Assembly (NCBI GenBank): GCA_965248145.1
Contig: OZ252091.1
Coordinates: forward strand, 2,626,649 to 2,690,648
Direction: 5' to 3'
DNA from: Gammaproteobacteria bacterium
GTDB taxonomy: Bacteria > Pseudomonadota > Gammaproteobacteria > Eutrophobiales > Eutrophobiaceae
Length of the DNA stretch: 64,000 nt
In this document: positions 42,245 through 57,108 of the stretch, piece after piece
Position numbering within the stretch: the first letter of the stretch is position 1
Layout: every line of letters starts with the position of its first letter
The notes under the pieces: model-generated
Told to the model about the DNA's origin: nothing
The model's input: the letters and a program-made list of their open reading frames with translations, nothing else
Database searches by the model: none
Program-made: the position numbers and the translations under genes

Positions 42245-42511
42245 TCAAAAAAGATCGGCATGGGTTCCCGTCCGTCGCAGAATCAAGCACTTGTCATCGA
42301 TCTCATAGATCAGAACCCAGTCTGGGCCAACATGCGCGTCCCAAGTATGATCATACTTCCCGGACAATTTGTGGGGTCGGGCTCCCGGTGGCAGCGGCTG
42401 ATCACTGGCCAGCCTCTCGATGAATGCCTCCAGCTTTTGAATATCCCAGCCTCGTTTTTTGATCTGCCTGTAGTCCTTGAGAAAGCGGTTGGTATAAGAA
42501 ATCTCTCGCAT
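42245..42511 (-). CDS. yafQ: Type II toxin YafQ/RelE family (mRNA interferase).
   Basis: 88 aa, with the FLKDYRQIKKRGWDI...HKLSGKYDHTWDAHVGPDWVLIY pattern. It lies immediately downstream of a DinJ-like gene. Confidence 0.75.
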   Translation of the reverse strand: MREISYTNRFLKDYRQIKKRGWDIQKLEAFIERLASDQPLPPGARPHKLSGKYDHTWDAHVGPDWVLIYEIDDKCLILRRTGTHADLF

Positions 42512-42513
42512 TC

Positions 42514-42783
42514 CTACGCTGCGTGACTCCGCGCCTCAAGATCGGCGAAAAGCTCCTTGGTGGAATCAAACCGTCTCAGGCTTTCCGCGGGTTCTTCCAG
42601 GGCTGCGATGGTGTCAGCATTGGGTATGCAAACATCAAATGGCAACCCCTTACGCAGGACCAATTGACTTAGCGCCATACGGATAAACTCTGTGGGTTTC
42701 AGTCCAAGTTGAGAGAGCACGGCTTCGGCTTGGGCTTTCAGTTCCGGTTCGACTCGGATTTGCATCTGTCTGGTTCTGGTCAT
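42514..42783 (-). CDS. dinJ: Type II antitoxin DinJ/RelB family.
   Basis: 89 aa, with a ribbon-helix-helix N-terminus MQIRVEPELKAQAEAVLSQLGL. It is 2 nt from the toxin gene. Confidence 0.75.
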   Translation of the reverse strand: MTRTRQMQIRVEPELKAQAEAVLSQLGLKPTEFIRMALSQLVLRKGLPFDVCIPNADTIAALEEPAESLRRFDSTKELFADLEARSHAA

Positions 42784-42892
42784 AGTGATACCTTGTCTTG
42801 TTTTTGTCTGATTATAGTCTGAACGATTTTGCTACCATTTGCAATACATATTGTCATAAGGTTCTCCCGCGTCCGGCAAAAATAGTATCTTT

Positions 42893-43010
42893 ATTGTTTT
42901 ACCCAGCAAAGAAGGCGATTATTCGCTGGCATGGCATAATCGTGTTGTATATACAGGCCTACTGCATTTGCCAATTGCTCAACGTCTTCAAAGTTCCTGA
43001 TGCCACTTTC
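42893..43010 (-). pseudogene. Duplicated 3'-terminal fragment (~118 bp) of the DUF938 methyltransferase gene.
   Basis: Nearly identical to 44683-44800, which is the real 3' end of CDS 44663-45277. It is flanked by REP sequences. Confidence 0.6.
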
Positions 43011-43323
43011 GGGATGGAGTTCTAGGCACGAGTTCCAGGGACACAATATTTAATTTTGCTATTCTGTCAGTATGATCATCCTGGCATTGAGAGGGCGTTG
43101 GGCCGAGTGGTGATAAAGAAAAAATAGGCGCAATAAAACGAATTAAGTATTGTGTCCCTGGAATTCCGGACCGTTACAGATCGAAGATGTGGTTGTTTCC
43201 GCGTTGCTGTTAAGCGCTTTCGTCGGTTTGGTATTTTATGTACGGTAAGATATTATTGATATATTTGATATATAAGATATCAAATGCTATAATCTTTCCC
43301 AAGTGATATCAGGAGGATGGCTT

Positions 43324-43560
43324 ATGACCGATATTCTAATTCGAAACATTGATAATCAATTAGACAAGGCATTAAAAATCAGGGCAATACAACATGGCCG
43401 AACCCGTGAAGCCGAAATCAAGTTTATCTTGAAGGCCACGGTTTCCCGGAGGCCTGAAAAACGCTCACTGGCTGAGGTCTTAATGGATATTCCCAAGCTG
43501 GATGTCGATGTAGACAATTTGTTTAAACGACCTGCCGGTTCCTCCCGCAATATGGATTAG
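43324..43560 (+). CDS. Ribbon-helix-helix antitoxin (FitA/VapB-like).
   Basis: MTDILIRNIDNQLDKALKIRAIQHGRTREAEI is a typical RHH N-terminus. It lies upstream of, and 7 nt from, a PIN toxin gene. Confidence 0.6.
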   Translation: MTDILIRNIDNQLDKALKIRAIQHGRTREAEIKFILKATVSRRPEKRSLAEVLMDIPKLDVDVDNLFKRPAGSSRNMD

Positions 43561-43567
43561 GTATGCC

Positions 43568-43993
43568 GTGTATTTGTTGGATACCAATGTAATATCGCAA
43601 TTCACCAAACGACAGCCAAATCCCGGCGTCACGGCATTTATAAAGGAAGCTGATGATGCAGAATCTTCTCTCTATTTATCCGTTATAACCATCGGCGAGA
43701 TTAACAAGGGCATTGTCAGGCTGACTCGTTATAACGACCTCCAACAAGCAGAAAAGCTAAGACAATGGTATAAGCAGTTGAAGATCGATTTTGCAGATTT
43801 TTTATTACCGATAGACGTGGACACAACGGTGATATGGGGAGAGGTTCTGGCTGCAACAGACGATACCAATGCTATCGACAAGCTCATTGCGGCAACGGCT
43901 TTACAATATGGTTTAACATTGGTTACACGCAATATTGATCACCTGATTGGTACGGGCGCCAAGTGTGTCAACCCATTTATCCCGGCAGAATAA
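43568..43993 (+). CDS. vapC: PIN-domain ribonuclease toxin (VapC/FitB-like).
   Basis: MYLLDTNVIS...D...TRN blocks of the PIN domain. GTG start. Confidence 0.8.
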   Translation: MYLLDTNVISQFTKRQPNPGVTAFIKEADDAESSLYLSVITIGEINKGIVRLTRYNDLQQAEKLRQWYKQLKIDFADFLLPIDVDTTVIWGEVLAATDDTNAIDKLIAATALQYGLTLVTRNIDHLIGTGAKCVNPFIPAE

Positions 43994-44143
43994 AAGACGC
44001 AGAAACAAAACTCCTTGATATAAAAGAGACTTCTTCTATCTCATTACACGCAATGATTTAACTACCATGAAATACCTCCGTATGCTACCTTCATCTTTGG
44101 AAAAATAACACGCGCATCAATTCACATTATAGGAGTTGGAATC

Positions 44144-44518
44144 ATGAGCAACATACCCGCAGATACAAGTGATAATGACCTGATTGAAAAGACTGTTCAG
44201 TTCTATATTGATGGAGCAAAATCCGGGAAGGGTGATGGTATGAAACCGGCGTTCCACACAGACGCGACGATCTTTGGATACATTGGTGATGACTTATTTG
44301 CCGGACCGATACAGAAACTTTTTGACTGGAACGATGAAAATGGAGCAGCAACAGGACTCGAAGCAAGAATAGCCAACATTGATATAGTTGGCACAGTCGC
44401 AACGGTCCGTCTTGAACTCGACAACTGGACCGGTCATAAATTTACTGACCTCTTTACATTGCTGAAAGTCGATGGTGATTGGAAGATTATGAATAAAGTT
44501 TTTTATCTCCATGCTTAG
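44144..44518 (+). CDS. NTF2-like / putative lumazine-binding family small protein.
   Basis: 124 aa with an NTF2-fold pattern (…TVQFYIDGAKSGKGDGMKPAFHTDATIFGY…GDWKIMNKVFY). Confidence 0.45.
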   Translation: MSNIPADTSDNDLIEKTVQFYIDGAKSGKGDGMKPAFHTDATIFGYIGDDLFAGPIQKLFDWNDENGAATGLEARIANIDIVGTVATVRLELDNWTGHKFTDLFTLLKVDGDWKIMNKVFYLHA

Positions 44519-44662
44519 GGAAACTTTGATTTATTCAGAGTTTCCTACGGTACAAGGAGGTACCGTCAAAATCGATTGGGAGTTCTGGGGAGACAATACT
44601 TAATTCTGTAAATCAATGGAGGCAGACTTGCTAGAATTAAGTATTGTCTCCCCAGGAACTCA

Positions 44663-45277
44663 TCAATTTCGTCGTTTTTGTTTTACCCAGCAAAGAAGGC
44701 GATTATTCGCCGGCATGGCATAATCGTGTTGTATATACAGGCCTGCTGCATTTGCCAGTAGTTCAACGTCTTCAAAGTTCCTGATGCCGCTTTCAGGATT
44801 ACTTTGTTTCAGCCATATATCAAATCTCGCATTGCTGTCGCTGGTATAGGCATTGTTGTAATTGAACGGGCCATAAAGCACGAGCAAACCATTATCGGGT
44901 AGCAGCTGCCCTACTCCGGCGATCATGGCCTTGACTGAGTCCCACCCCATAATATGTATCGCATTGGCGGAAAACACGGCATCTACTTTTAACTTTGACC
45001 AATACGCCTGGGTAACATCCAGTATGAGGGGTAGAGGCGTATTGGCTAAGTTTGCCTCACTCAACCATAATTCGATTCCTGCATGATTCTCCTGCAGGTC
45101 ACTGCTGTGCCAGATCAGGTGCGGTAATTTCTCTGCGAAATAAACAGCGTGCTGCCCGGTACCGCTGCCTATCTCCAGAACTGCCTTACTGCCAGCGAAC
45201 AATACTTCAATAATCTCAAGAATCGGTTGCCGATTGTTATCACAGGCAACGGAATACGGTTTGTTTGACATAAACAA
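44663..45277 (-). CDS. Class I SAM-dependent methyltransferase, DUF938 family.
   Basis: VLEIGSGTGQHAVYFAEKLP glycine-rich SAM motif. Length 204 aa. Confidence 0.7.
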   Translation of the reverse strand: MFMSNKPYSVACDNNRQPILEIIEVLFAGSKAVLEIGSGTGQHAVYFAEKLPHLIWHSSDLQENHAGIELWLSEANLANTPLPLILDVTQAYWSKLKVDAVFSANAIHIMGWDSVKAMIAGVGQLLPDNGLLVLYGPFNYNNAYTSDSNARFDIWLKQSNPESGIRNFEDVELLANAAGLYIQHDYAMPANNRLLCWVKQKRRN

Positions 45278-45309
45278 GCAAAATTGACAGAAGCCGTTTA
45301 GTGCGTGAC

Positions 45310-45705: not shown

Positions 45706-45757
45706 ATCTTTCCCCTCTTGTTTATGAGTCATAGAGAGTCATAATAATCCATAATGG

Positions 45758-48088
45758 TTAAAATGAAAGGCGCACGCCGAATATACCGGAACGTCCCGGT
45801 AACGGCGCCAGTTCTTTTACAAAAGACGTATGCCGGCGTATCTCTTCATCAAGCAGGTTGCTGGCGCTGGCAAACAGGGTAACATTATTGCCGGCCTGAC
45901 TTAGTCGGTAGCTGGCATAGAGGTTCAACAAGTCATAACCATCGGTAGGCGTTTCAAACAGCGCGGTGTCATTCTGTTTATTTACACGGGTATAACTCAG
46001 GGTCGCATACCAGGGACCCTGAAAATAAGTCAAGCCGGCGCCAAACCGCCAGGGAGTAATACGCGGCAGGTTGACATTATCAGAACGCTTACCTTCCACA
46101 TAATCTGCCCATAAACGTATATCCAGCGAGCCACTTTCGCCTTCCAGGGCATGTACGACTCCTTCCAGCTCAAAACCCATGAACTCCGCATCGTCCTGGA
46201 CCTGGGCAACGAGCAAGTGGACGCCATCCTCGTCCGGGTCCCGGATACCGGCCAGGTCGCCGGCGAAATCATCATGCACCCAGTCAGCGATGCCATCCTC
46301 GTTCAGGTCCTGCTCCTTCAGGAATATGAAATCATCAATCCGGTTATAGAATAAATTGACCGTGAGGGTGAGCCTCCCCGTCGCTTTCCGCCAGTAGAAA
46401 TCAATATTAGTAGACTTTTCCTTGCTCAGCTCAGTATCGCCATACTCAAACGTCGTTGTCGCGAGATGCGGACCTGCAGTATACAACTCCTCCAGAGACG
46501 GCGCCCGTTGCGCATGGGTGGCGACAAGACCCAGTTCATAACCGTCGCGGTAGTCCCAGTTCAGGCCGCCGGAGATGCTGAACAGGTCATGGCTGGTTTC
46601 CCCGCCGTTATCAGCGCTGGTGTCCTGATATTCATATCTGGCGCCGAATTCCATGTGCCAGTTCCCCATGTCACCTTTTTCCAACAAGAACGCGGCAATG
46701 GACTCCAACTCTGAGGGCGGGACAAAGTCTTCTTCGCCTATCGCGGCAAAATCCTTGTAGTGATACTGCAGACCGACGGCCCCTTGCCAGCCACCGAGGG
46801 GGTGATGCACAATCTCGACGCGGGCTTCCATCTCATTATTGTCAAAGGCCACACCTACGTTGCCGTCGGCTTCCACTTCATCATGATGATAGTCGTTGTA
46901 TGACGAGCGCGTTTTGATCCGGTGTATGCCGATAAAAGGATCATATAAGGACGCCTCGAAGTCATAACGTGTCTGCCCCATGTCTATCCGTGGGCGGCCT
47001 TCTCCTCCATGCCCCCCTTCTTCCTCGTGATGTCCCTCTTCCTCATCATGCCCTTCTTCCTCATGATGTTCCTCTTCATCATCATGATCTTCTCCCTCAT
47101 GGAAATCAATTCCATCCAGCAGATCTGTTTCATCATCATGATGGTGGTCTCCCAGAATGCCATAGTTGTTGTCAAGTCGGCTCACGGAAAAGCCGATGAA
47201 CCCGCGTTCACCGATCCAGGATGCCCCTGCTGCCACACTTTCCGTTTCGATACTGCTGTTTTCCAGTACGCCTTTCTCCATCTCATCATCCGGGTCCCTG
47301 TCCAATTCGGCGAACCCGGGAATTTTGTAGTCGTCGGTATGACGTTTCATACCGTCGATGTGAAAGGCGAAATTCCCTGCTCCGACGCTGAAGCTTCCGC
47401 CGCCGTTCACACCATCGTTGACGGTTTCATATTGTAGCGATATATCGGCCTGCAGGTCTTCCGGGACATATTTGGGAATGCGATCATTAACGACGTTGAC
47501 CACGCCGCCACTGGCGCCACTGCCAAAAAGCAACGTGGCAGGGCCACGAAAAATCTCAATCTGCCGGGCAAACGCAGGCTCCGTAGGTACTGCATGGTCA
47601 GCGCCTATATTGGCCACGTCCATGGTACTGATGCCATTTTCGAGCACGCTTACCCGACTGCCGGCCAGACCGCGAATGACGGGACGTCCTACCGCTGCAC
47701 CGAAATCACCGGAGCTCACGCCCAGCTCATTGGCAACCGCCTCTCCAATATTATGGATGCTACGGCTTTCGAGTTGTTTTTTTGTCAATACCTGGGCAGG
47801 TCGCGCCATGTGTTCATCTATATCACCCAATGGGTCGGCAGTGACGATTATCTCTTCCATATACTCATGACCAGCCGATGTGTGGGTATGACCCCCCGGT
47901 GTAAGCGAACGCTTGGGCGGTGTATGGGTATGACTGGCCGGTGTGTGGGCGTGCTCATCCTCCGCAGGCACGCTGGCAGCCGGGTCGTGCGCATCGCCGG
48001 CAACTTCATCGGCAAATGAAAACGATGCATGGATAACCACGACGATGGTCAACGAGGCTATACCTATTAATCGTAATGAATCAGGCAT
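45758..48088 (-). CDS. TonB-dependent receptor with His-rich N-terminal extension and a His/Glu/Asp-rich surface loop (ZnuD-like metal-uptake receptor).
   Basis: Plug and barrel blocks. N-terminal HAHTPASHTHTPP...GGHTHTSAGHE, and an internal loop HHHDDETDLLDGIDFHEGEDHDDEEEHHEEEGHDEEEGHHEEEGGHGGEG. Confidence 0.8.
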   Translation of the reverse strand: MPDSLRLIGIASLTIVVVIHASFSFADEVAGDAHDPAASVPAEDEHAHTPASHTHTPPKRSLTPGGHTHTSAGHEYMEEIIVTADPLGDIDEHMARPAQVLTKKQLESRSIHNIGEAVANELGVSSGDFGAAVGRPVIRGLAGSRVSVLENGISTMDVANIGADHAVPTEPAFARQIEIFRGPATLLFGSGASGGVVNVVNDRIPKYVPEDLQADISLQYETVNDGVNGGGSFSVGAGNFAFHIDGMKRHTDDYKIPGFAELDRDPDDEMEKGVLENSSIETESVAAGASWIGERGFIGFSVSRLDNNYGILGDHHHDDETDLLDGIDFHEGEDHDDEEEHHEEEGHDEEEGHHEEEGGHGGEGRPRIDMGQTRYDFEASLYDPFIGIHRIKTRSSYNDYHHDEVEADGNVGVAFDNNEMEARVEIVHHPLGGWQGAVGLQYHYKDFAAIGEEDFVPPSELESIAAFLLEKGDMGNWHMEFGARYEYQDTSADNGGETSHDLFSISGGLNWDYRDGYELGLVATHAQRAPSLEELYTAGPHLATTTFEYGDTELSKEKSTNIDFYWRKATGRLTLTVNLFYNRIDDFIFLKEQDLNEDGIADWVHDDFAGDLAGIRDPDEDGVHLLVAQVQDDAEFMGFELEGVVHALEGESGSLDIRLWADYVEGKRSDNVNLPRITPWRFGAGLTYFQGPWYATLSYTRVNKQNDTALFETPTDGYDLLNLYASYRLSQAGNNVTLFASASNLLDEEIRRHTSFVKELAPLPGRSGIFGVRLSF

Positions 48089-48160
48089 TGAACAAAATCC
48101 TCGTCAGTCGAGCGGAGAGATAGTCGAATTTATCTTCTCACAAGCACAAATAGCACGAAT

Positions 48161-49135
48161 TCAGTCGGTCGAGCGCACAGGGGCGACCAGGTGAGCAAAA
48201 TGGTGATCTTCAGTGCATCCCTCCAGTGACTTTTCCACCTGAAGGGTAATATGGCCGATACCGAAATCATGGGAAACAATCTCCCGCAGGCGCAAACGCA
48301 GGTCTTCCATGTCATCCGGGTAGTCCGGATCGATGAGGACGTGCGCGGTGAGCGCCTCGTTGCCTGGAGAGAGTGTCCAGACGTGGATGTCATGGACGAG
48401 GGTGACGCCTTCCACCGCTTCCAGTTTGCTGCAAAGATCATACACGTCAATATGTTCGGGCGTACCCTCGAGCAATACGTGAACGACCTTTGCCAGCAGG
48501 CGCCAACTGCTGATAAGTATGAGAAGAGCAATGATCACACTGGCAATGGGGTCGGCAAGCGTCCAGCCGAAAACCAGGATAAGAGTACCTGAAACAACGA
48601 CGCCCACCGACCCCAGCAGGTCCGCGATAACATGCATAAAGGCACCCTCAACATTGAGGTTATGCTCGGAAGAACCATGGAGGATCCAGGCTGCGGCGAT
48701 ATTGACGCCAAGACCGATGATGCCTATGCTCAGCATCAACTCGCCTTTTACCTCAGGTACGGATGTGAAGCGGTCATAGGCCTCGACTATCACCCAGGCC
48801 GCGATTAGCCAGAGGGCCAGTGCATTCAGCAAGGCTGCCAGTATCTCAAGCCGGTGATAACCAAAGGTGCGTTGCACGGAGAAAGGTCGCTCGGCAAACA
48901 GCATGGCGACCAGGGCCAGTGCAATGGTTGCCGCGTCGGTAAGCATGTGTCCCGCATCAGCGAGCAGCGCCAGACTGCCGGACAGCACACCGCCGATAAC
49001 CTCAACGAACATAAAACCGGCGATCAAAATAAAGGCAGCGATCAGGCTCCGCTTGCCGGCATTGCGCAACTCATGGGAATGATCATGTTTGCCCGGACCA
49101 TGGTGACCATGGTGGCTGTGACTATGACCTTTCAT
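48161..49135 (-). CDS. Cation diffusion facilitator family divalent-metal efflux transporter (CzcD/ZitB-like).
   Basis: His-rich N-terminus MKGHSHSHHGHHG, six TM segments with the CDF signature, and a C-terminal cytoplasmic domain. Confidence 0.85.
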   Translation of the reverse strand: MKGHSHSHHGHHGPGKHDHSHELRNAGKRSLIAAFILIAGFMFVEVIGGVLSGSLALLADAGHMLTDAATIALALVAMLFAERPFSVQRTFGYHRLEILAALLNALALWLIAAWVIVEAYDRFTSVPEVKGELMLSIGIIGLGVNIAAAWILHGSSEHNLNVEGAFMHVIADLLGSVGVVVSGTLILVFGWTLADPIASVIIALLILISSWRLLAKVVHVLLEGTPEHIDVYDLCSKLEAVEGVTLVHDIHVWTLSPGNEALTAHVLIDPDYPDDMEDLRLRLREIVSHDFGIGHITLQVEKSLEGCTEDHHFAHLVAPVRSTD

Positions 49136-50049: not shown

Positions 50050-50225
50050 TCCGACGCCGCTCGTTAGTTCTGGGTAGTTCTGGGGACACGGGGTAGTTCT
50101 GGGGACACTAGTTCTGGGGACACAATACTTGGGTAGTTCTGGGGACACAATACTTAATTTCCAATTAGTTCTGGGGACACAATACTTAATTTCCAATTAG
50201 TTCTGGGGACACAATACTTAATTTC
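50050..50225. repeat. Array of 6 direct REP-like units (TAGTTCTGGGGACAC[AATACTTAATTTCCAAT]) immediately upstream of the RAYT gene.
   Basis: Direct reading. The same REP consensus (GTTCTGGGGACACAATACTTAATT) occurs singly or in inverted pairs at about 43030, 43140, 44585, 44640, 50910, 51800-51920, 52365, 56000 and 56130. Confidence 0.75.
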
Positions 50226-50239
50226 GGTATACTGTTAAT

Positions 50240-50908
50240 ATGGCAAGACTGACAAGGATCGTTCTACCCGGTTATCCCCACCATGTGACCCAGCGGGGCA
50301 ACCGTCGCCAGGATGTATTTTTTTGTGACGGCGATTTGCAGGCTTATCTGACTCTACTCAAGCAATGGTGCGCCAGGGAGTCGGTGCAGGTCTGGGCGTA
50401 CTGTCTGATGACCAACCACGTCCATCTGATTGTCAAACCGGAAGAAGGTTCCAACCTTAGCCGGGCCATCGGGGAGACACACAGGCGTTACACAAGGATG
50501 ATAAATTTTCGGGAACAATGGCGCGGCTATTTGTGGCAGGGTCGGTTTGCTTCCTTTGTGCTGGATGAACCGTGGTTGCTGCAGGCGGTTGCGTATGTGG
50601 AATATAATCCGGTGGCGGCGGGGATGGTAGCTCGGCCCTGGGATTATCGTTGGAGTAGCGTCCATGCCCATTTGGCTGGGGAGGACTCTCTGGGGATAGT
50701 GGAGGTAGCTCCGTTACTTGATTTAGTTGGGGGCGACTGGCAGGCCTACTTGAGTTCGTACAAGGTAGATGGGGACGGGAACTTTGCAACCCATGAGCGC
50801 ACGGGCAGACCTTTGGGGGATGAGGGATTTATTGACAGGATTGAGAGTGCGTTGAGCCGGGTGGTGAGAAAGAAAAAACCGGGGCCAAAACAACGGCAGG
50901 ATAATTAA
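50240..50908 (+). CDS. REP-associated tyrosine transposase (RAYT, IS200/IS605 Y1 HUH family).
   Basis: The HUH motif MTNHVHLIV and a downstream catalytic-Tyr region. Length 222 aa. It is flanked by REP arrays. Confidence 0.8.
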   Translation: MARLTRIVLPGYPHHVTQRGNRRQDVFFCDGDLQAYLTLLKQWCARESVQVWAYCLMTNHVHLIVKPEEGSNLSRAIGETHRRYTRMINFREQWRGYLWQGRFASFVLDEPWLLQAVAYVEYNPVAAGMVARPWDYRWSSVHAHLAGEDSLGIVEVAPLLDLVGGDWQAYLSSYKVDGDGNFATHERTGRPLGDEGFIDRIESALSRVVRKKKPGPKQRQDN

Positions 50909-50999
50909 GTATTGTGTCCCCTGAATTAATTAAAACTATAGTACCTGATAATACAGAATTTTCTTGAAATTATAACACCTAGTATTATATATTGATTGT

Positions 51000-51416
51000 A
51001 TGAGTAATGGCATGGAAAGCCCAAAAACCAGGATTTTCAAGAACAAGCGGTTTTGTCGCTTCGCCCGGAAGGAGGGAATTGAGGACGCTGACGTGTGTGA
51101 GGCGATCAGCAATGCCGATAAAGGGCTGATAGATGCCGACCTCGGTGGTGGCCTGATCAAGCAAAGGATCGCGGGATCTAACAAAGGAAAGTCAGGTGGA
51201 TACAGGTCGATTATCCTGTTTCGCTCCAGCGATAAGGCTTTCTTCGTGTACGGTTTCGCGAAGAGCGAGCGAGACAACATTAAGAAAGATGAACTGATAG
51301 GCTTCAAGGATCTGGCGGATGAAATGTTTGGTTATGGCGAGTCCGCACTTGCCAAGGCCCTGAAGAGCGGAGCAATCGTAGAGGTAAAATGCAATGAAAA
51401 AGAATTATCGAAGTGA
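51000..51416 (+). CDS. Type II toxin, RelE/HigB-like (toxin-first module).
   Basis: 138 aa with the ...KSGGYRSIILFRSSDKAFFVYGFAKSERDNI... core typical of HigB-2/RelE-fold toxins. It is followed by an overlapping HTH antitoxin gene. Confidence 0.5.
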   Translation: MSNGMESPKTRIFKNKRFCRFARKEGIEDADVCEAISNADKGLIDADLGGGLIKQRIAGSNKGKSGGYRSIILFRSSDKAFFVYGFAKSERDNIKKDELIGFKDLADEMFGYGESALAKALKSGAIVEVKCNEKELSK

Positions 51417-51711
51417 CGTCCTCGGTGCGATCCATGAGACTGCCTTGGATCTCCATGACGCTGGCGTCATGGACAAGCGCACGCTACGTAAATTCGACAA
51501 TATGTGCCTGACCCCGGTGCGTACAATGAATCCGGAGGAAATTCGTGCGCTTCGCAGGCGTGAGCATGTGAGTCAAGCCGTCTTTGCGATATACCTGAAC
51601 GTTTCCAAGGGAGTGGTCAGCCAGTGGGAGCGCGGTGAGAAGCATCCTGCCGGAGCGTCTCTCAAGCTCCTGTCCCTGGTTCAGGAGAAGGGGTTGGATG
51701 CTATCGCATGA
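51394..51711 (+). CDS. HTH XRE-family antitoxin (HigA/NadS-like).
   Basis: 105 aa. The C-terminal HTH VSQAVFAIYLNVSKGVVSQWERGEK is classic for COG2944-type antitoxins. It overlaps the toxin gene by 23 nt. Confidence 0.65.
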   Translation: MKKNYRSDVLGAIHETALDLHDAGVMDKRTLRKFDNMCLTPVRTMNPEEIRALRRREHVSQAVFAIYLNVSKGVVSQWERGEKHPAGASLKLLSLVQEKGLDAIA

Positions 51712-51754: not shown

Positions 51755-51930
51755 GTCACGGGTGGTGAGAAAGAAAAAACCTGGGCCAATACAACGGCAG
51801 GATAATTAAGTATTGTGTCCCCATAATTTTTGCATAATTTTTGACGGCAGGATAATTAAGTATTGTGTCCCCATAATTTTTGGTGTCCCCATAATTGCCA
51901 GTATTGTGTCCCCAGAATTGTTCCAGAATT
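51755..51930. repeat. Degenerate copies of the RAYT 3'-end plus REP units.
   Basis: CGGGTGGTGAGAAAGAAAAAACCTGGGCCAATACAACGGCAGGATAATTAAGTATTGTGTCCCC matches the end of the RAYT CDS (50860-50925) and is then repeated. Confidence 0.6.
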
Positions 51931-52006
51931 GATTTATATCGGCTTCTTAAAACGTATTAACCAAGCCGATTTTTGATGGCTGAGTTCATAGTGCTATTAT
52001 GCAGAT

Positions 52007-52333: not shown

Positions 52334-52403
52334 CTGTTTTCTGCTCAAGTCGGAGTTTTGGAGTTCTGGGGGAGTTCTGGGGACACAATTATTCATTTCC
52401 AGA

Positions 52404-54671
52404 TCAAAACCTGAATGTATGTCCCAACCTGATTATCGCTTGTGTCCTGTCCGGATCAAAATCACCTGGAAAACTGCTGCTTTCCAGATCTGCAGTTTGA
52501 TCCACGGCCACGAAGATTTCGGTTTGTGGTTGGGGAAACCAGCGAAACCTGCTTGAAAAGGAAAACCTCTCTGAAATATTATCGTACTGCATCTGCGTAT
52601 CAATTTGCATGTCAGGACTGAAATTAATACTACTGTCCAGCGAACCAATGTGAACTGTCAGGTCCCCGGTCGGCAAGTCAAACTTTTCCATGTCATAACC
52701 GGCCGTTAACCGGAGATGTTTTGAAATCCTGAATTCCAGGGAAGAATTCAAGGCAAGATAGTCTCCATCGTATATGCTGCAGCACACCACTCCAAGCTCT
52801 GCAATTACTTTTCTTGAGTCTGTAGAAATCAGCGATGCGTCAAATTGGTTGAAATGGTAATCACCTACAGGTACAGGAAGCTTTCCGGCTATCAGGAAAG
52901 GCTGATTGATTACCTCCCGTAAATTGCTGGCTTTAATTTTAAACTCATCTCCAATTTGATTCTCAAGCGTACTGACTAAAGTCAATTTATGGCTTTCCAT
53001 GTCATTATCCAGATCAGTTATAACATTGCCTATAACGCCGGCTTCCCACCATCGAACCCAGCTGTCTTCAAACCGCTTTCTTCTAATATAATCCCCATGG
53101 TAATCGCGAATGTTGCGACGATTGACAAAACCCAGGGCAGGGTCAAAATGATTTCCTATCTCCTTCCCACTGATAAACCAGCGTAATAAATCATTGGGAT
53201 AACCCACAATAAAACCGAACATATCATCATCTTTTCCTGCAGCAGGACCGTTGAGATCGTCAGAAAAGCTACGTTGGTAGAACACGTCGGCAAGCAAACG
53301 ACCCCCGAAGTAAGGTATATTGGAATTCCTGTACTTGAAGTCAAACCCTGCTACGGTGTTTTTTCCACTCCCATCCGGGTCGCCATTCGTTAATATTGCT
53401 CCCAGGCGCGACTCTTCCAGTACGTCTGCAGATACCCTGGCAACGCTGAGTGTCTTCCCACCGATATTGTCCGTTTTATCCATTCTTACGCTCAGTGCAC
53501 CTACATTCAGGTTCCCGATTCGACCGGACAATTTTCCACCCGCGATGAGATCCACAACCCCCTCATTTACGATACCGATTCTACGGGTAAAGAACGGCAA
53601 TCCATTTGCAACTGTGTTTGGCGGGGTGAGCGCCGCACCGCCAAATTCAAAAATTACTCTATCCTGCAGAAAGAAATCCCTTGTCTCCGGAAAAAACAGT
53701 GAAAATCGACCCGTATTGACCTGCCGTTCATCGAGTGGAGAATCTGAAAAATCCGTATTAAGCGTTACAGTTCCCGTGAGGGATGGCGTTATTTTGTAGA
53801 ATACATTTCCGCTGACCTCCGGAGTAAAACTGTCATCCCGAGGTCGCTGCATCCAGTCTCTCTCATATCTCATCTTTCCAAACGCCTGCACATCCAGACC
53901 AAGGCCCCGATGGGTATCTCGTATTCCGGTCATTAAACCTATTTCTGAAACGTTGAGGGGGTTAAGGGATTGATCAATCTGAGACCATCTTACTGTTTCG
54001 TTTTTGTGCCGGATTTGTCGCATGATCTCGAAACCCCATTCATCGGCTTCAGGATCAAAAGATATACTGCGAAACGGAATTGCCATCTCCGCTACCCAAC
54101 CATCATCCGTACGCCTTGCTTCAACGTCCCAGATTGTGTCCCACTCCGGATAATAGTTGCTGTTATTTTCTAAAAGAACGTCCATTTGTGTACCCAGGGA
54201 ATTGACAATAAACATGAATGCATCCCTGGTGCTGTTGTACGGATCCAGATAAACACGAATATTGTCGTCCTGCCATAATTCGCGGTCCCGTTGCATAACG
54301 GTGGCTAAAACTTGATCAGGTTGAGAATCCTGGCAGTAAAATCCGAAATAAAGATTAGTTTCGTCATACGCCATATAGGCAATGGTGAGTTCGGAAGGCT
54401 GTGCGCCTTCAACTGGTTCCACCTGGTAAAAAGTGTCTATCCTGGTCGCCTTCGACCAGACATGATCGGAAAGATCACCATCAATTGTTGGTGCTTCTTC
54501 CTTGTCTATTCTTGTTATTTCAACCCTGGGCTCATAATTCTGAAGATTGATCGATATATCTTCCGCCATCAAAGGCAGACTTATAAATGCTATGGAAACT
54601 ACGAAATGCCTATTGAGAAGAGAGCTTAAGAACATAATTCGCTTCCGGGTGCTGTCGTTTACCGACAACAT
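52404..54671 (-). CDS. DUF5916-family outer-membrane protein with N-terminal carbohydrate-binding-module-9-like domain.
   Basis: Signal peptide. N-terminal CBM9-like block (…DGDLSDHVWSKATRIDTFYQVEPVEGAQPSELTIAYMAYDETNLYFGF…) followed by ~500 aa of barrel-like sequence. Confidence 0.55.
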   Translation of the reverse strand: MLSVNDSTRKRIMFLSSLLNRHFVVSIAFISLPLMAEDISINLQNYEPRVEITRIDKEEAPTIDGDLSDHVWSKATRIDTFYQVEPVEGAQPSELTIAYMAYDETNLYFGFYCQDSQPDQVLATVMQRDRELWQDDNIRVYLDPYNSTRDAFMFIVNSLGTQMDVLLENNSNYYPEWDTIWDVEARRTDDGWVAEMAIPFRSISFDPEADEWGFEIMRQIRHKNETVRWSQIDQSLNPLNVSEIGLMTGIRDTHRGLGLDVQAFGKMRYERDWMQRPRDDSFTPEVSGNVFYKITPSLTGTVTLNTDFSDSPLDERQVNTGRFSLFFPETRDFFLQDRVIFEFGGAALTPPNTVANGLPFFTRRIGIVNEGVVDLIAGGKLSGRIGNLNVGALSVRMDKTDNIGGKTLSVARVSADVLEESRLGAILTNGDPDGSGKNTVAGFDFKYRNSNIPYFGGRLLADVFYQRSFSDDLNGPAAGKDDDMFGFIVGYPNDLLRWFISGKEIGNHFDPALGFVNRRNIRDYHGDYIRRKRFEDSWVRWWEAGVIGNVITDLDNDMESHKLTLVSTLENQIGDEFKIKASNLREVINQPFLIAGKLPVPVGDYHFNQFDASLISTDSRKVIAELGVVCCSIYDGDYLALNSSLEFRISKHLRLTAGYDMEKFDLPTGDLTVHIGSLDSSINFSPDMQIDTQMQYDNISERFSFSSRFRWFPQPQTEIFVAVDQTADLESSSFPGDFDPDRTQAIIRLGHTFRF

Positions 54672-55028
54672 TTAAGCTTAAGAAGCTATAAGAATATATT
54701 AAAATAGAAAATAGTGCCTGGCTGGAGTAAAATACGTTATGTAACCTACTGATTTTAATCAAATAACCTTTTTGATTATTTTATTTCTCTACGATTTTAC
54801 TAAGGTAATTTTATCGATCAGTAATTGGCTACTTTCCAACCACCGTTGGGCGAGCATACAACCCAGGAGTGGCCCGAAAAATGCGGTGTAGTAATTGATA
54901 AAAGCAACAAAATTTGCACCCTTCGTAATTCAGAACAAAATTAAGTGCAAGCCGTACACCGTTCGACCAGGCTAGGTCCGGCGGGTTTGCACCATAACCA
55001 ATCAAGTCTCTTTCTGACGAGTAAACCA

Positions 55029-55553
55029 TTATGGATCCATCTGCTTATGCTGCTCTGCCGTGTCAGTGGGCAGCACAACTTCAAACGGCGCGTCAATATC
55101 AAGAAACTCTTCGTCACCGCTGCTACCATCGCACCACATTAAAACAGCCATCTCGGTTGTCTCATCGAGTACCGTCATGCCGTGGTGCCAGATACCGCGC
55201 CGATATGTAATACCCTGGTCACCCTCAGCCACAAAGGCCCTGACCCTGGCCAGATCCGGGCTACCATCGCCATTATCCGGTGCGACAACGACAAAATACC
55301 TGGAGGCCTTTAATGGTAAAAACGTCTGGCTTGAAAATGGGTGGCGTTCCATCACAGTCGCATGCAGGGGCAGCTTGTCAACAGGTTTTATCGTGGCGAT
55401 GGAAAGATCAACCCGTGCACCTGTGCGGGCGTTTTCGAGCAGATCATTAAAGAAATGACGGTTGCCTTCCGGCGGACTCTGAATTACTTCTCCAAATTCA
55501 GAAAAAGTGTCCGAATTCAAGGGCTCGGCAATGATTTGCGGTATACCGGTCAT
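55029..55553 (-). CDS. allA: Ureidoglycolate lyase (AllA).
   Basis: 174 aa. Block-by-block similarity to AllA, including ...HATVMERHPFSSQTFLP...FVVVVAP...GITYRRGIWHH.... Confidence 0.7.
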   Translation of the reverse strand: MTGIPQIIAEPLNSDTFSEFGEVIQSPPEGNRHFFNDLLENARTGARVDLSIATIKPVDKLPLHATVMERHPFSSQTFLPLKASRYFVVVAPDNGDGSPDLARVRAFVAEGDQGITYRRGIWHHGMTVLDETTEMAVLMWCDGSSGDEEFLDIDAPFEVVLPTDTAEQHKQMDP

Positions 55554-55562
55554 TTTATGGAT

Positions 55563-55958
55563 TTAGCCTGCCGTACCTCGAATACACTTTGTCTGATCGA
55601 TATCCAGCGTATCCATCGCCGTTATCACCACACCGTATTTATCCTGTGCCTCGCTACGGGAAATATAGCCATCCAGATAATCGTCCAGGACGCGGCTCGC
55701 AGCGCGCTCATAAGGATTACCATAACCGCCACCCGCGCCACCTATAGCAGTGTATCTATCCCCTGCCAATGCAGGCCGTGTTTGTAACATTGATGGTAAG
55801 TCTATTTGTTCGTCGTTTTTTCGTTTCAGGATCAACGCTGATGATACGCCATCGCTTCCACCAGCCCTGCTGGGAATGACCGTCACCTTCGGCGCTGACC
55901 GAGCCATCCAACGGTGTATAAGCCCTGTTAACTGTAAACCATGAATACTGTAGCGCAT
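55563..55958 (-). pseudogene. C-terminal remnant of a hydantoinase B / 5-oxoprolinase (HyuB-type) gene.
   Basis: Contains only the C-terminal signature ...AIGGAGGGYGNPYERAASRVLDDYLDGYISRSEAQDKYGVVI. It has no N-terminal ~450 aa, and the upstream side is replaced by REP / RAYT-3'-end remnants (55990-56100). Confidence 0.5.
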
Positions 55959-56278
55959 TCGGGGCGTAAGCTGAAGTTGAATCCACCTTCATTTATGATA
56001 ATTCATCGAATTCTGGGCGAATTCTGGGGACATAATACTTAATTCGTTTTTCGAGCCTATTTTTTCTTTCTCACACCCGACCCAACGCTCTCTCAAGACC
56101 AGGATGACCATACTGACAGAATGGCAAAATTAAATATTGTGTTCCTAGAACTCTAAAACTACATTAAAACACAATATAATCTATTTTTCTTTCCTTTTTA
56201 TGCTTTTCTTAGTAGTACTATATTAAAATTCATGATATTCTCTAAAAACGTTATCAATCTGAATTTTGATATAGTTAG

Positions 56279-57073
56279 ATGAGTAATCAGCCTTCAAAAA
56301 GACAACAGCGATTAGCGGCACTATTACGCGCAACATCCGGCACAATCCGAGTATCTGATGCTATGCGGATTCTGGGTGCTGACCGGCAACATGCATCCAG
56401 ATTGCTGGCGGGATGGCATAAACAAGGAGTTATCCGGCGCGTTGCACACGGTTTGTACGTTCCTGTCCAGCCATCTGCGCTAGGGCAAACCCAGGTGCTT
56501 GAAGACCCATGGGTGCTGGTGCCGGAGTTATACACGCCAGGCTACATCGGTGGTTGGAGTGCCTTGGAACACTGGGAGCTGACGGAGCAGCTTTTCAGGT
56601 CAATCTGTGTACTTACCAATAAGCGGGTCGCCTATGGTGCAACCACACATCAAGGTGTTAACTTTTTTATCAAATATGTTGCTGAAAGGCATTTGTTTGG
56701 CACAAAAACCATATGGCGAGAAAATGCGAAGATACAGATTTCAGACCCATATAAAACACTGTTAGATTGTATCGATCATTTGGACTTGGGTGCAGGTTTG
56801 CAACATGTAACAGATTGCTTGATCGAATTTACACGGGTGTTCGACAAACCTGGCGATCTTGATGCTTTGCTGAACTACGCTATTCAATTCAATAATGGTG
56901 CGTTGTTTAAAAAACTGGGTTATCTGGCTGAAACGCTTGAGTTCAATCCTTCTTTTATCAATGCATGCCGAGAACGCATAACATCGGGTTATGCCACTCT
57001 CGATAAAAAAGCTGAGAATAATCGATTGGTTACAAGGTGGAATTTATGGGTGCCAGGAGATAGGACGAAATGA
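56279..57073 (+). CDS. Type IV TA antitoxin, AbiEi family (transcriptional regulator).
   Basis: 264 aa with an AbiEi_4-type N-terminal wHTH (...IRVSDAMRILGADRQHASRLLAGWHKQGVIRRVAHGLY...). Confidence 0.65.
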   Translation: MSNQPSKRQQRLAALLRATSGTIRVSDAMRILGADRQHASRLLAGWHKQGVIRRVAHGLYVPVQPSALGQTQVLEDPWVLVPELYTPGYIGGWSALEHWELTEQLFRSICVLTNKRVAYGATTHQGVNFFIKYVAERHLFGTKTIWRENAKIQISDPYKTLLDCIDHLDLGAGLQHVTDCLIEFTRVFDKPGDLDALLNYAIQFNNGALFKKLGYLAETLEFNPSFINACRERITSGYATLDKKAENNRLVTRWNLWVPGDRTK

Positions 57074-57108
57074 TTGGAAAGGATGAAATTCTGGCATTTG
57101 CCGATGAG
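57071..57108 (+). pseudogene. AbiEii-type nucleotidyltransferase toxin gene, first ~13 codons (MIGKDEILAFADE), interrupted by the IS21-family insertion. It resumes at 59710 (TGLTPNVAEKD...) and is then truncated.
   Basis: Joining the two flanks across the IS gives MIGKDEILAFADETGLTPNVAEKD, a typical AbiEii N-terminus. The frame then diverges and runs into the convergent SRAP gene. Confidence 0.45.

What the first reader, a model, noticed from the sequence alone, without database searches (positions are those of the whole stretch)
42245..57108. Dense addiction/defence-module neighbourhood: DinJ-YafQ, RHH-PIN, HigBA-like, and an orphan AbiEi whose AbiEii toxin was destroyed
Three intact type II TA pairs and one type IV antitoxin occur within 15 kb. 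They are interleaved with REP/RAYT repeats, an IS21 element and gene remnants (a hydantoinase B C-terminus and the methyltransferase fragment). The AbiEi antitoxin gene is intact, but the downstream AbiEii toxin ORF is cut after codon 13 by the IS and is further deleted after ~24 codons. Surviving antitoxin-only loci are consistent with selection to neutralise the toxin. The whole block looks like a decaying genomic island.
Basis: partly seen in the sequence, partly recalled or inferred. Interest (0 to 1): 0.5.

Follow-up and report, generated by a model that had tools for sequence, protein, structure and literature searches.

The report
Toxin-antitoxin cluster with IS-broken AbiE toxin
A 17-kb stretch of an uncultured marine gammaproteobacterium carries three apparently intact toxin-antitoxin pairs and one AbiE abortive-infection module whose toxin gene was destroyed by a deletion and a very recent insertion sequence. 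This is a well-documented but ordinary case of how such modules pile up and decay.

Summary
HMMs confirm DinJ-YafQ (42245-42783), a FitAB-like RHH-PIN pair (43303-43993), a toxin-first RelE(PF06296)/XRE pair (51000-51711) and a full-length AbiEi (56279-57073).

The downstream AbiEii keeps only 24 codons. A 2601-bp IS21 element (57109-59709, 8-bp duplication CCGATGAG) splits them after codon 13. Homology to intact partners stops at 59750, 13 nt before the SRAP gene. With the IS removed, 23 of 24 residues match an intact 485-aa AbiEii-WYL protein. All IS copies seen (three in this genome, two elsewhere) are 100% identical, so the insertion is very recent.

REP/RAYT repeats, a DUF938 3' fragment, a hydantoinase-B-family C-terminus and a PuuE N-terminus are also real.

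- The block is not one classical island. It has no integrase, tRNA or att site, its composition is mixed, and it contains a syntenic anchor gene.
- An antitoxin cannot be lost before its toxin, and the IS hit is recent. Together these explain the orphan AbiEi without positive selection.
- Among nine related loci with an intact AbiEi, AbiEii is broken or absent in six, so toxin loss is recurrent.

All families and processes here are known. Interest is low.

The parts
42245..42511 (-). YafQ-family RelE-fold toxin, 88 aa
   Evidence: PF15738 1.7e-29; TIGR02385 78.9 bits. Alignment to E. coli YafQ structures (4ml2, 4q2u; 2e-17) keeps the H..DAHVxPDW..TGTHAxLF motifs.
42514..42783 (-). DinJ/RelB-family antitoxin, 89 aa, 2 nt upstream of YafQ
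   Evidence: PF04221 2.7e-11; TIGR02384 64.4 bits, above the cut-off of 45.65.
42891..43015 (-). Remnant of the 3' end of a DUF938 methyltransferase gene, a direct repeat of 44672-44799
   Evidence: PF06080 positions 163-202/202, 3.4e-10. 128 nt at 93% identity to the intact gene.
43030..43166 (.). MITE-like internal-deletion derivative of the REP-RAYT unit, copy 1
   Evidence: It holds REP, then the RAYT 5' leader and ATG, then the RAYT 3' end, then an inverted REP. It shares the same deletion junction with the copies at 56019-56156 and L001:19816-19957.
43303..43560 (+). FitA-like ribbon-helix-helix antitoxin (the start may be the ATG at 43324)
   Evidence: PF22513 2.5e-11.
43568..43993 (+). 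PIN-domain (VapC/FitB-like) toxin, 141 aa
   Evidence: PF01850 1.4e-13. Best solved relative is N. gonorrhoeae FitB, 4e-11. D5, E44 and D104 are conserved. The fourth acidic position is N122, with D124 nearby.
44144..44518 (+). Lumazine_bd_2 (NTF2-like) gene that lies with the RHH-PIN pair between the two DUF938 repeats
   Evidence: PF12893 4.3e-27. GC is 43%, like the RHH-PIN pair.
44580..44655 (.). REP inverted doublet (REPIN-like hairpin)
   Evidence: 23-nt arms, 100% complementary. DNA fold -27 kcal/mol, z -11.
44663..45277 (-). Intact DUF938 methyltransferase
   Evidence: PF06080 1.4e-66, profile covered 1-202/202.
45758..49983 (-). Zinc-homeostasis trio inside the block, not TA-related: ZnuD-like TonB receptor, ZitB-like CDF, ZIP
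   Evidence: NF038289 3.6e-139; NF002923 1.1e-83; TIGR00820 5.5e-23. GC is 54-56%, like the nuo genes.
50076..50931 (+). RAYT gene (50240-50908) flanked by at least four direct REP units upstream and an inverted REP downstream
   Evidence: PF01797 1.2e-12. NF047646 REP_Tyr_transpos 70.6 bits, below its cut-off of 80. Repeats.
51000..51416 (+). RelE-fold toxin of family PF06296 (HigB2-like), toxin-first order
   Evidence: PF06296 9.7e-46, full profile. Weak match to V. cholerae HigB-2 structures, E 0.004.
51394..51711 (+). XRE/HTH_3 antitoxin candidate overlapping the toxin by 23 nt
   Evidence: PF01381 1.3e-6; MqsA-family HTH region 6e-8; NadS 9e-5.
51759..51930 (.). Second copy of the RAYT 3' end plus REP (94% to 50858-50927), followed by further REP units. 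Together with the first copy it brackets the RelE/XRE pair.
52404..54671 (-). CBM9/DUF5916-type protein, the only block gene also found near nuoA in the closest available genome
   Evidence: PF06452. 75% identical gene lies 1.8 kb from nuoA in L008.
54829..55958 (-). Decayed ureide-catabolism cluster: PuuE N-terminal remnant (about 54913-55014), intact ureidoglycolate lyase (55029-55553), hydantoinase-B-family C-terminal remnant (55563-55958)
   Evidence: TIGR03212 positions 2-35/297, 1.4e-8. PF04115 1e-34. PF02538 positions 467-519/519, E 0.015. NF050157 positions 511-568/577, 3.7e-10.
56019..56156 (.). MITE-like REP-RAYT derivative, copy 2, inverted. Its edge is where homology to AbiE cassettes begins.
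   Evidence: 80 nt at 89% complementary to 43030-43109. Alignment. Cassette homology starts at 56157.
56279..57073 (+). Intact AbiEi (type IV antitoxin / transcriptional regulator), 264 aa, with about 122 nt of conserved upstream region
   Evidence: PADLOC PDLC02271 7.6e-90, full length; PF13338 1e-7. 92% identical to P0001. Upstream region aligned.
57070..57108 (+). AbiEii remnant, codons 1-13 (ATGA overlap with the AbiEi stop)
57109..59709 (+). IS21-family element, 2601 bp: IstA 57289-58830, IstB 58848-59579, repeated CTGCCACC motifs in both ends, 8-bp target duplication CCGATGAG at 57101-57108 and 59710-59717
   Evidence: NF033546 7.2e-92; NF038214 5.8e-80. Ends and duplication. Five copies 100% identical. 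70.5% to an ISSpu5-family element.
59718..59750 (+). AbiEii remnant, codons 14-24. Homology to intact toxins ends here, 13 nt before the SRAP stop codon.
59764..60396 (-). SRAP (YedK-like) gene that abuts the deletion junction and marks the right border
   Evidence: PF02586 4.7e-68.

Best explanation
This is a patchwork variable region between the nuo operon and an SRAP gene. The host is a mobile-element-rich, uncultured marine gammaproteobacterium, represented by a 3.77-Mb circular MAG.

Small, independently acquired toxin-antitoxin cassettes have accumulated in intergenic sites marked by REP/RAYT-derived repeats.

Three type II modules are intact at the ORF level. From established knowledge of their families they should work as follows:
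- DinJ-YafQ and the RelE(PF06296)/XRE pair: ribosome-dependent mRNA endonucleases held in check by a labile DNA-binding antitoxin.
- The FitAB-like RHH-PIN pair: a PIN RNase held in check the same way.

The fourth module is a copy of a horizontally circulating AbiE cassette (AbiEi, then a 485-aa AbiEii-WYL nucleotidyltransferase).
- Its toxin gene was inactivated by two independent events. One is a deletion that removed everything after codon 24. The other is a very recent insertion of an actively transposing IS21 element after codon 13.
- AbiEi survives because an antitoxin cannot be lost before its toxin, and because at least one of the hits is recent.
- AbiEi probably still represses its own promoter, but it has no cognate toxin to counteract.

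Shown: gene identities, the anatomy of the disruption, IS activity, cassette mobility, and recurrent toxin loss in relatives.

Inferred: the activities of the intact pairs, the order of the two AbiEii events, and the absence of selection on the orphan.
For: - The HMM assignments, with profile coverage and bit scores, are.
- The YafQ catalytic motifs are conserved against solved structures.
- The rejoined AbiEii N-terminus matches an intact partner at 23/24 residues.
- Nucleotide homology to intact cassettes (90%) runs exactly 56157-57108 plus 59718-59750.
- The IS21 element has perfect 8-bp target duplications. Five copies, three of them in this genome, are 100% identical over 2601 bp, and three of the four insertion sites have their own target duplication.
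- The deletion junction lies 41 nt beyond the IS end, so it is not an IS-adjacent deletion.
- The AbiE cassette (3.6 kb) is 99.4% identical in two unrelated contexts.
- Next to an intact AbiEi of at least 80% identity, AbiEii has these states:
  - intact in L002, L004 and L006;
  - truncated in L003, L005 and L096 (an IS at residue 423);
  - split by a Y1 transposase in L098/L099;
  - absent in L097;
  - destroyed in the window.
- The closest available genome has 1.8 kb and two unrelated genes between nuoA and the CBM9 gene. The window has 10.5 kb there.
- There is no tRNA in the window and the composition is mixed.
- Orphan type IV antitoxins are reported as enriched among orphan antitoxins in marine MAGs (PMC12654330).
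Against: - No strain-level relative was available. Insertion versus deletion polarity for each cassette, and the ancestral state of the region, are therefore inferred.
- The nine compared AbiE loci were found through intact AbiEi proteins. 'AbiEi always intact' is therefore true by construction.
- The low dN/dS of AbiEi (0.07-0.15), including the fully orphan L097 copy, is also what functional retention would give.
- Activity of the three intact pairs is untested, and the PIN toxin has Asn at the fourth acidic position.
- The rest of the genome could not be scanned, so a distant AbiEii paralogue or genome-wide TA density cannot be assessed.
Confidence: 0.7

Rival explanations
1. The orphan AbiEi is kept by selection. 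It could act as an anti-addiction or immunity factor that neutralises AbiEii from incoming copies of the circulating AbiE cassette, or it could be a co-opted transcriptional regulator.
For: - AbiEi is full length and about 122 nt of its upstream region is conserved.
- dN/dS is about 0.10 on its own branch.
- L097 carries an intact orphan AbiEi with no detectable toxin trace, and its pairwise dN/dS is similarly low.
- Near-identical AbiE cassettes occur in different genomic contexts in related metagenomes, so exposure to incoming copies is plausible.
- Type IV antitoxins are over-represented among orphan antitoxins in marine MAGs (PMC12654330).
Against: - The IS21 insertion is extremely recent, and dN/dS averages over history that predates the toxin loss.
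- The loci were ascertained through intact AbiEi.
- The order-of-loss constraint alone predicts antitoxin-only remnants.
- From prior knowledge, type IV antitoxins do not bind their toxin, so cross-neutralisation in trans is not established for this subfamily.
Confidence: 0.18
2. The whole 42-60 kb block is one classical horizontally acquired genomic or defence island that integrated once and is now eroding.
For: - The block contains gene remnants, an IS, MITE-like repeats and four TA modules.
- All 14 REP hits in the window fall inside it.
- Its content differs from the nuoA-CBM9 interval of the closest genome.
- The RHH-PIN/lumazine-binding segment and AbiEi have lower GC.
Against: - There is no tRNA in the window.
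- The block genes I scanned against Pfam include no integrase other than the IS21 transposase, and no att-like direct repeats bound the block.
- GC differs cassette by cassette. DinJ-YafQ, the zinc trio and RAYT match the nuo genes, and genes to the right of the block are as AT-rich as the 'foreign' parts.
- The CBM9 gene inside the block is a conserved neighbour of nuoA in L008.
- A further MITE copy lies about 9 kb beyond the block.
- PADLOC recognises only AbiEi as defence-related.
Confidence: 0.08
3. The arrangement is an assembly artefact of a metagenome-assembled genome, for example repeats collapsed or a chimeric join at the IS or REP sites.
For: The source is a MAG. The region is rich in repeats (an IS in at least three copies, plus REP units), which are typical places for misjoins.
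Against: - By its record name, the contig is a circular 3.77-Mb assembly at about 98x coverage.
- The IS has a perfect 8-bp target duplication, and the AbiEii reading frame is restored across it. A misjoin would not produce this.
- Two of the other three IS21 insertion sites have their own target duplications.
Confidence: 0.03

Closest known systems
AbiE type IV toxin-antitoxin / abortive-infection system (AbiEi wHTH antitoxin plus AbiEii GTP-specific nucleotidyltransferase; Lactococcus and Streptococcus agalactiae prototypes, from prior knowledge)
   Same: AbiEi is full length (PADLOC 7.6e-90). The gene order is antitoxin then toxin, with a 4-nt ATGA overlap. The toxin N-terminus matches AbiEii.
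   Different: The toxin is reduced to 24 codons and split by an IS, so the system is non-functional. The intact partner in this subfamily is a 485-aa AbiEii fused to a WYL domain and a C-terminal Zn-ribbon-like tail, not the roughly 270-300-aa prototype.
E. coli DinJ-YafQ (PDB 4ml2, 4q2u)
   Same: Same gene order and sizes. The toxin aligns end to end (2e-17) with the His/Asp catalytic motifs conserved.
   Different: It scores 67 bits against the strict YafQ model TIGR00053, below the cut-off of 87, so it is a divergent family member. No functional data exist.
Neisseria gonorrhoeae FitAB, a VapBC-class RHH-PIN module (PDB 2h1c, 2bsq)
   Same: FitA-like RHH antitoxin upstream of a PIN toxin. 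The toxin aligns over 136 residues to FitB (4e-11). Three of the four acidic active-site residues are conserved.
   Different: The fourth acidic residue (FitB D122) is Asn here, with Asp two residues later. Low identity overall.
Vibrio cholerae HigB2-HigA2 and the Pfam PF06296 'RelE' family with XRE antitoxins
   Same: Toxin-first order, overlapping genes, RelE-fold toxin, HTH_3 antitoxin.
   Different: There is only a weak, partial sequence match to HigB-2 structures (E 0.004). Family membership is PF06296, not PF05015 HigB.
Decay of chromosomal TA systems by toxin inactivation with antitoxin retention (for example ccdO157 in E. coli, from prior knowledge) and orphan antitoxins in marine MAGs (PMC12654330)
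   Same: The toxin is inactivated first and the antitoxin ORF is retained. The pattern recurs independently in related loci.
   Different: Here the module is type IV. The inactivating lesions are documented base by base: an IS21 element, a Y1 transposase, another IS, and deletions.
ISSpu5-group IS21-family insertion sequences
   Same: IstA and IstB genes, multi-repeat terminal inverted repeats, a 7-8-bp target duplication at three of the four insertion sites examined (none at the fourth), about 2.6 kb in length.
   Different: Only 70.5% nucleotide identity to the nearest annotated element, so it is probably an unnamed isoform.

Membership tests
YafQ/RelE-type type II toxin with DinJ/RelB antitoxin | Toxin matches the YafQ/RelE family model above its curated threshold | tested here: met
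   PF15738 102 bits (cut-off 30). TIGR02385 78.9 bits (cut-off 27.9). The strict TIGR00053 model gives 67 bits, below 87.
YafQ/RelE-type type II toxin with DinJ/RelB antitoxin | Catalytic His/Asp/His motifs of YafQ conserved | tested here: met
   Alignment to 4ml2/4q2u keeps the H in 'PHKL', 'DAHVGPDW' and 'TGTHADLF'. Residue roles come from prior knowledge.
YafQ/RelE-type type II toxin with DinJ/RelB antitoxin | Adjacent upstream RelB/DinJ antitoxin in the same operon | tested here: met
   TIGR02384 64.4 bits, above 45.65. The genes are 2 nt apart.
VapBC/FitAB (RHH-PIN) | PIN domain with four conserved acidic residues | tested here: inconclusive
   PF01850 is above threshold. D5, E44 and D104 are present. 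The position aligned to FitB D122 is N122, with D124 nearby.
VapBC/FitAB (RHH-PIN) | RHH antitoxin gene immediately upstream | tested here: met
   PF22513 43.8 bits (cut-off 27). The gap between the genes is 7 nt.
RelE (PF06296) / HigB2-like toxin with XRE antitoxin | Full-length match to the family model, toxin-first order, overlapping HTH antitoxin | tested here: met
   PF06296 155 bits, profile covered 1-120/120. HTH_3 28.8 bits (cut-off 23). 23-nt overlap.
RelE (PF06296) / HigB2-like toxin with XRE antitoxin | Toxicity and neutralisation by the partner | not testable with these tools
   This needs expression assays.
AbiE type IV TA / abortive infection | AbiEi with an N-terminal wHTH and a C-terminal antitoxin domain | tested here: met
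   PADLOC PDLC02271 covers residues 6-260. PF13338 covers residues 10-62.
AbiE type IV TA / abortive infection | Intact AbiEii nucleotidyltransferase (PF08843) downstream | tested here: not met
   Only 24 codons remain, split by IS21. There is no tblastn hit to AbiEii anywhere in the window at E 1e-3. The locus is a remnant, not a functional system.
AbiE type IV TA / abortive infection | Negative autoregulation through operator repeats in the promoter | not tested
   The upstream 122 nt are about 90% conserved with intact cassettes. No operator was defined.
IS21 family insertion sequence | istA and istB genes, terminal inverted repeats with internal repeats, and a target-site duplication | tested here: met
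   NF033546 308 bits; NF038214 268 bits.
REP/RAYT system | HUH-Y1 transposase of the RAYT type flanked by inverted repeat units | tested here: inconclusive
   PF01797 is met. NF047646 gives 70.6 bits, below its cut-off of 80. Flanking direct and inverted units are present.
REP/RAYT system | Each REP unit is itself an imperfect palindrome | tested here: not met
   The single 32-nt unit folds no better than shuffles (z 0.68). Only inverted doublets form hairpins (z -11).
Classical genomic island | Integrase, tRNA or other att site, flanking direct repeats, and uniform foreign composition | tested here: not met
   No tRNA in the window. The block genes scanned against Pfam include no integrase other than the IS21 transposase. 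No repeats bound the block. Composition is heterogeneous.

The most novel reading that the evidence does not exclude
The REP/RAYT-derived repeats may be more than bystanders. They could be the sites, or even the machinery, through which small cassettes are captured.

- The RHH-PIN/lumazine-binding segment is bracketed by REP elements plus 128-nt direct repeats of the DUF938 3' end (93% identical).
- The RelE/XRE pair is bracketed by 70-nt direct repeats of the RAYT 3' end plus REP (94% identical).
- The AbiE cassette homology begins exactly at the edge of a RAYT-derived MITE.
- A RAYT fragment plus an identical REP also lies near the AbiE cassette in another genome (L002).

This pattern would fit Campbell-type or RAYT-assisted integration of circular cassette intermediates at REP-marked sites. 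That would be an integron-like gene-capture role for a REP/RAYT system.
Probability: 0.06. Interest if true: 0.55.

Novelty: new member of a known kind. Interest (0 to 1): 0.2.

Why it matters
The locus is a clean, base-resolved example of how chromosomal toxin-antitoxin and abortive-infection modules decay. The toxin goes first, through IS insertion and deletion, and the antitoxin is left behind.

The same AbiE subfamily shows independent toxin loss in six of nine related loci. This helps in interpreting the many 'orphan antitoxins' that automated surveys report in marine metagenome-assembled genomes.

The result does not reveal a new system or mechanism. Its practical value is for annotation:
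- AbiEi here should not be scored as a functional defence system.
- The deposited gene model starts 28 codons too late.

Tried and rejected
1. Exact-sequence look-ups of the full-length AbiEi ORF and of NuoD found nothing. The source genome was found only through a 236-aa gene model of AbiEi.

2. Synteny with relatives.
   - The species-representative genome scan gave a nearest relative with only 89% NuoA identity. Of the 28 window genes queried, it shares only nuoA, nuoB and CBM9.
   - The nearest CBM9 homologues in metagenomes (about 80% identity) sit in an entirely different neighbourhood.
   - Empty-site analysis at strain level was therefore impossible.

3. Composition as an island marker was rejected. 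GC and GC3 vary gene by gene, and the flanks are no different.

4. Search for a second AbiEii. None of the top 120 homologues (at least 59% identity) comes from a 3,765,412-bp contig, and there is no hit in the window. Distant paralogues cannot be excluded.

5. An Rfam scan of the block for RNA antitoxins or riboswitches found only sub-threshold hits of the REP hairpin to plant miRNA models.

6. The inverted MITE copies at 43 kb and 56 kb as ends of a composite transposon or inversion. This was considered and dropped, because inverting the segment restores no gene and a third copy lies outside the block.

7. An IS21-mediated adjacent deletion as the cause of the AbiEii truncation. This was rejected because the junction is 41 nt from the IS end and the target duplication is intact.

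8. Pairwise dN/dS as a test of selection on the orphan. It was computed but judged non-decisive, because it averages over history before the toxin loss.

Full report
**1. What is there**

I listed ORFs across 40-64 kb and scanned them against Pfam, NCBIfam and PADLOC. Downstream of the nuo operon (nuoA ends at about 41869 on the minus strand), the block reads in this order:
- YafQ (42245-42511) and DinJ (42514-42783).
- A 3' fragment of a DUF938 methyltransferase gene (42891-43015).
- A 137-nt REP-RAYT-derived element (43030-43166).
- A FitA-like RHH gene (43303-43560) and a PIN gene (43568-43993).
- A lumazine-binding-fold gene (44144-44518).
- A REP hairpin doublet (44580-44655).
- The intact DUF938 gene (44663-45277).
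- A cupin gene.
- A ZnuD-like TonB receptor, a ZitB-like CDF and a ZIP transporter (45758-49983).
- A REP array and a RAYT gene (50076-50931).
- A PF06296 RelE toxin (51000-51416) and an XRE antitoxin (51394-51711).
- A second copy of the RAYT 3' end plus REPs (51759-51930).
- An ABM-like ORF, then further REPs.
- A CBM9 protein (52404-54671).
- A PuuE N-terminal remnant, an intact ureidoglycolate lyase and a hydantoinase-B-family C-terminal remnant (54829-55958).
- A second, inverted copy of the 137-nt element (56019-56156).
- AbiEi (56279-57073).
- The AbiEii start (57070).
- An IS21 element (57109-59709).
- Eleven more AbiEii codons (59718-59750).
- An SRAP gene (59764-60396).

**2.

All three type II pairs score above curated thresholds for their families.
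- The YafQ-like toxin aligns end to end with E. coli YafQ structures, and the catalytic His/Asp motifs are conserved.
- The PIN toxin is closest to FitB. It keeps three of the four acidic residues, and the fourth is Asn122 with Asp124 nearby.
- The PF06296 toxin covers its whole profile and weakly resembles HigB-2.
- AbiEi matches a PADLOC AbiEi model over its full length, at 7.6e-90.

The small non-overlapping ORFs outside the block have no TA-family Pfam hit. All recognisable TA modules of the 64-kb window therefore sit in about 15 kb. By my own arithmetic this has p of about 0.04 under uniform placement.

All 14 REP-motif matches also fall between 43037 and 56146. However, a further copy of the 137-nt element lies about 9 kb beyond the block, outside the window.

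**3. Anatomy of the AbiEii destruction**

- The IS is 2601 bp long. Its inverted ends begin TGCATATTCCAG, and it is flanked by the 8-bp duplication CCGATGAG.
- With the IS and one duplication copy removed, the reading frame is restored to MIGKDEILAFADETGLTPNVAEKD.
- That peptide is identical at 23 of 24 positions to the N-terminus of the 485-aa AbiEii-WYL protein that follows the closest AbiEi homologue, which is 92% identical.
- Nucleotide homology to those intact cassettes (90%) runs from 56157, exactly the edge of the REP-derived element, to 59750. It then stops, 13 nt before the SRAP stop codon.
- The deletion junction is 41 nt from the IS end and the duplication is intact, so the two lesions are independent events.

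**4. Timing**

- The identical IstA protein occurs at three places in the source genome and on two other contigs.
- All five IS copies are 100% identical over 2601 bp. Three of the four insertion sites have their own target duplication, and two of the five copies (L094, L095) share one site.
- The element is therefore actively transposing, and the AbiEii hit is very recent.
- The age of the deletion is unknown.

**5. Source and relatives**

- The window comes from a circular 3.77-Mb MAG contig, ENA ERZ25766727 ctg362337_98x_c.
- The closest of these has 89% NuoA and 92% NuoB identity. It places the CBM9 gene 1.8 kb from nuoA with two unrelated genes between. In the window that interval is 10.5 kb.
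- CBM9 homologues at about 80% identity sit in a different neighbourhood altogether.
- No strain-level relative exists in the collections, so the polarity of individual insertions could not be established.

**6. Is it one island?**

- There is no tRNA in the window.
- The block genes I scanned against Pfam include no integrase other than the IS21 transposase, and no repeats bound the block.
- GC is heterogeneous. DinJ-YafQ, the zinc trio and RAYT are at 52-56%, like the nuo genes. RHH-PIN and the lumazine-binding gene are at 43%, and AbiEi is at 46%. The genes to the right of the block are at 44-47%.
- PADLOC recognises only AbiEi as defence-related.

I read the block as a patchwork of small insertions and deletions in a variable region, not as a single eroding island.

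**7. The AbiE cassette is mobile, and its toxin is often lost**

- The identical AbiEi protein P0001 occurs in several contexts. A 3.6-kb unit (AbiEi, AbiEii-WYL and a DUF4145 gene) is 99.4% identical between two unrelated contexts.
- Among loci with an intact AbiEi at least 80% identical to the window copy, AbiEii has these states:
  - intact in three (L002, L004, L006);
  - internally deleted or scrambled in two (L003, L005);
  - truncated by an IS at residue 423 in one (L096);
  - split by a Y1 transposase in one (L098/L099);
  - absent without trace in one (L097);
  - destroyed in the window.
- These loci were found through intact AbiEi, so the antitoxin's intactness is by construction. 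The high rate of independent toxin inactivation is real.

**8. Is the orphan under selection?**

- Pairwise Nei-Gojobori dN/dS of AbiEi is 0.07-0.15 for all pairs, whatever the toxin state.
- A three-taxon decomposition gives about 0.10 on the window branch, with dS about 0.24.
- This shows purifying selection over the lineage. It cannot isolate the period after toxin loss, which for the IS event is essentially zero.
- The upstream 122 nt are about 90% conserved with intact cassettes, so expression is plausible.
- The simplest account is that an antitoxin cannot be lost before its toxin, combined with recency.
- Retention as an anti-addiction factor or regulator remains possible. I give it about 0.18.
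- A survey of marine MAGs already reports abundant orphan antitoxins, with type IV over-represented among them (PMC12654330).

**9. Repeats**

- The 25-32-nt unit (core GGGGACACAATACTTAATT) is not palindromic on its own. It forms strong hairpins as inverted doublets.
- It flanks a Y1 transposase that scores just under NCBI's RAYT cut-off.
- A 137-nt derivative joins the REP, the RAYT leader and its ATG to the last 70 or so nt of the RAYT ORF and an inverted REP. It occurs in at least three copies that share the same deletion junction, at about 87% identity. It therefore behaves as a MITE.
- RAYTs are usually single-copy and considered domesticated, although some groups are IS-like (PMC5581495).
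- Two cassettes are bracketed by direct repeats of neighbouring gene ends:
  - 128 nt of the DUF938 3' end (93%) around the RHH-PIN/lumazine-binding segment;
  - 70 nt of the RAYT 3' end plus REP (94%) around RelE/XRE.
- This would fit Campbell-type integration at short homologies, or recombination at REP sites. I flag it as unexplained rather than as a mechanism.

**10. Verdict**

Every component belongs to a known family and the processes are textbook ones: cassette acquisition, IS disruption, toxin-first decay and orphan antitoxins. Novelty is 'new member of a known kind' and interest is 0.2. The most novel reading not excluded is cassette capture linked to REP/RAYT, which I put at about 6%.

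Noticed in passing
window 13880-17305 (+): A 1141-aa ORF lies in a 70-77% GC stretch, against a window mean of 52%. By eye it has an SRCR-like module plus fibronectin-III-like and Calx-beta-like repeats. It looks like a eukaryote-like surface protein of strongly foreign composition.
   Followed up: no
window 43030-43166, 56019-56156; L001:19816-19957 (about window 66.2 kb): A 137-nt MITE-like element derived from the REP-RAYT unit by an internal deletion. It occurs in at least three copies that share the same junction, at about 87% identity. This implies that a non-autonomous RAYT derivative has multiplied.
   Followed up: partly
window 42888-43015 vs 44672-44799; 50858-50927 vs 51759-51828: Two cassettes are bracketed by direct repeats of the neighbouring gene's 3' end. 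RHH-PIN plus the lumazine-binding gene sits between 128-nt repeats (93%). RelE/XRE sits between 70-nt repeats (94%). In both cases the repeats lie next to REP units. The mechanism is unexplained.
   Followed up: partly
L002:9751-13343 and L004:9751-13343; L003, L005, L096, L097, L098: A 3.6-kb AbiEi / AbiEii-WYL / DUF4145 cassette is 99.4% identical in two unrelated genomic contexts. In sister loci the toxin is independently deleted, IS-truncated, split by a Y1 transposase, or absent.
   Followed up: yes
L002:14476-14679: Another genome carrying the 92%-identical AbiEi has a RAYT internal fragment (76% aa identity) fused to an exact copy of the REP core. It lies about 1.1 kb downstream of the AbiE cassette.
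   Followed up: partly
L091, L092, L094/L095 (other sites of the same IS21): Other 100%-identical IS21 copies sit next to a RES/Xre_MbcA_ParS TA pair and a giant fn3/Calx-beta protein (L092), inside a DNA-methylase / HATPase_c_3 / Vsr cluster (L094, L095), and in an IS-rich patch near a TIR-domain gene (L091).
   Followed up: no
window 56279-56362: The deposited gene model for AbiEi starts at Met29 (236 aa, P0004). This removes part of the N-terminal winged-helix region, which the Pfam AbiEi_4 model matches at residues 10-62. All homologues are 264 aa.
   Followed up: yes
window 45758-49983 (-): A ZnuD-like TonB receptor with a His/Glu/Asp-rich insert (around HEEEGHDEEEGHHEEEG) is followed by a ZitB-like CDF exporter and a ZIP importer. 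This is a compact zinc-homeostasis cluster sitting between the TA cassettes.
   Followed up: no
window 43568-43993, residue 122: The PIN toxin has Asn where FitB has its fourth catalytic Asp (D122), with an Asp two residues later. The toxin may be attenuated even though its ORF is intact.
   Followed up: partly
window 54829-55958 (-): A ureide/hydantoin catabolic cluster is eroded from both sides. Only the first 35 or so residues of PuuE and the last 60 to 100 or so residues of a hydantoinase-B-family protein remain, around an intact ureidoglycolate lyase.
   Followed up: yes
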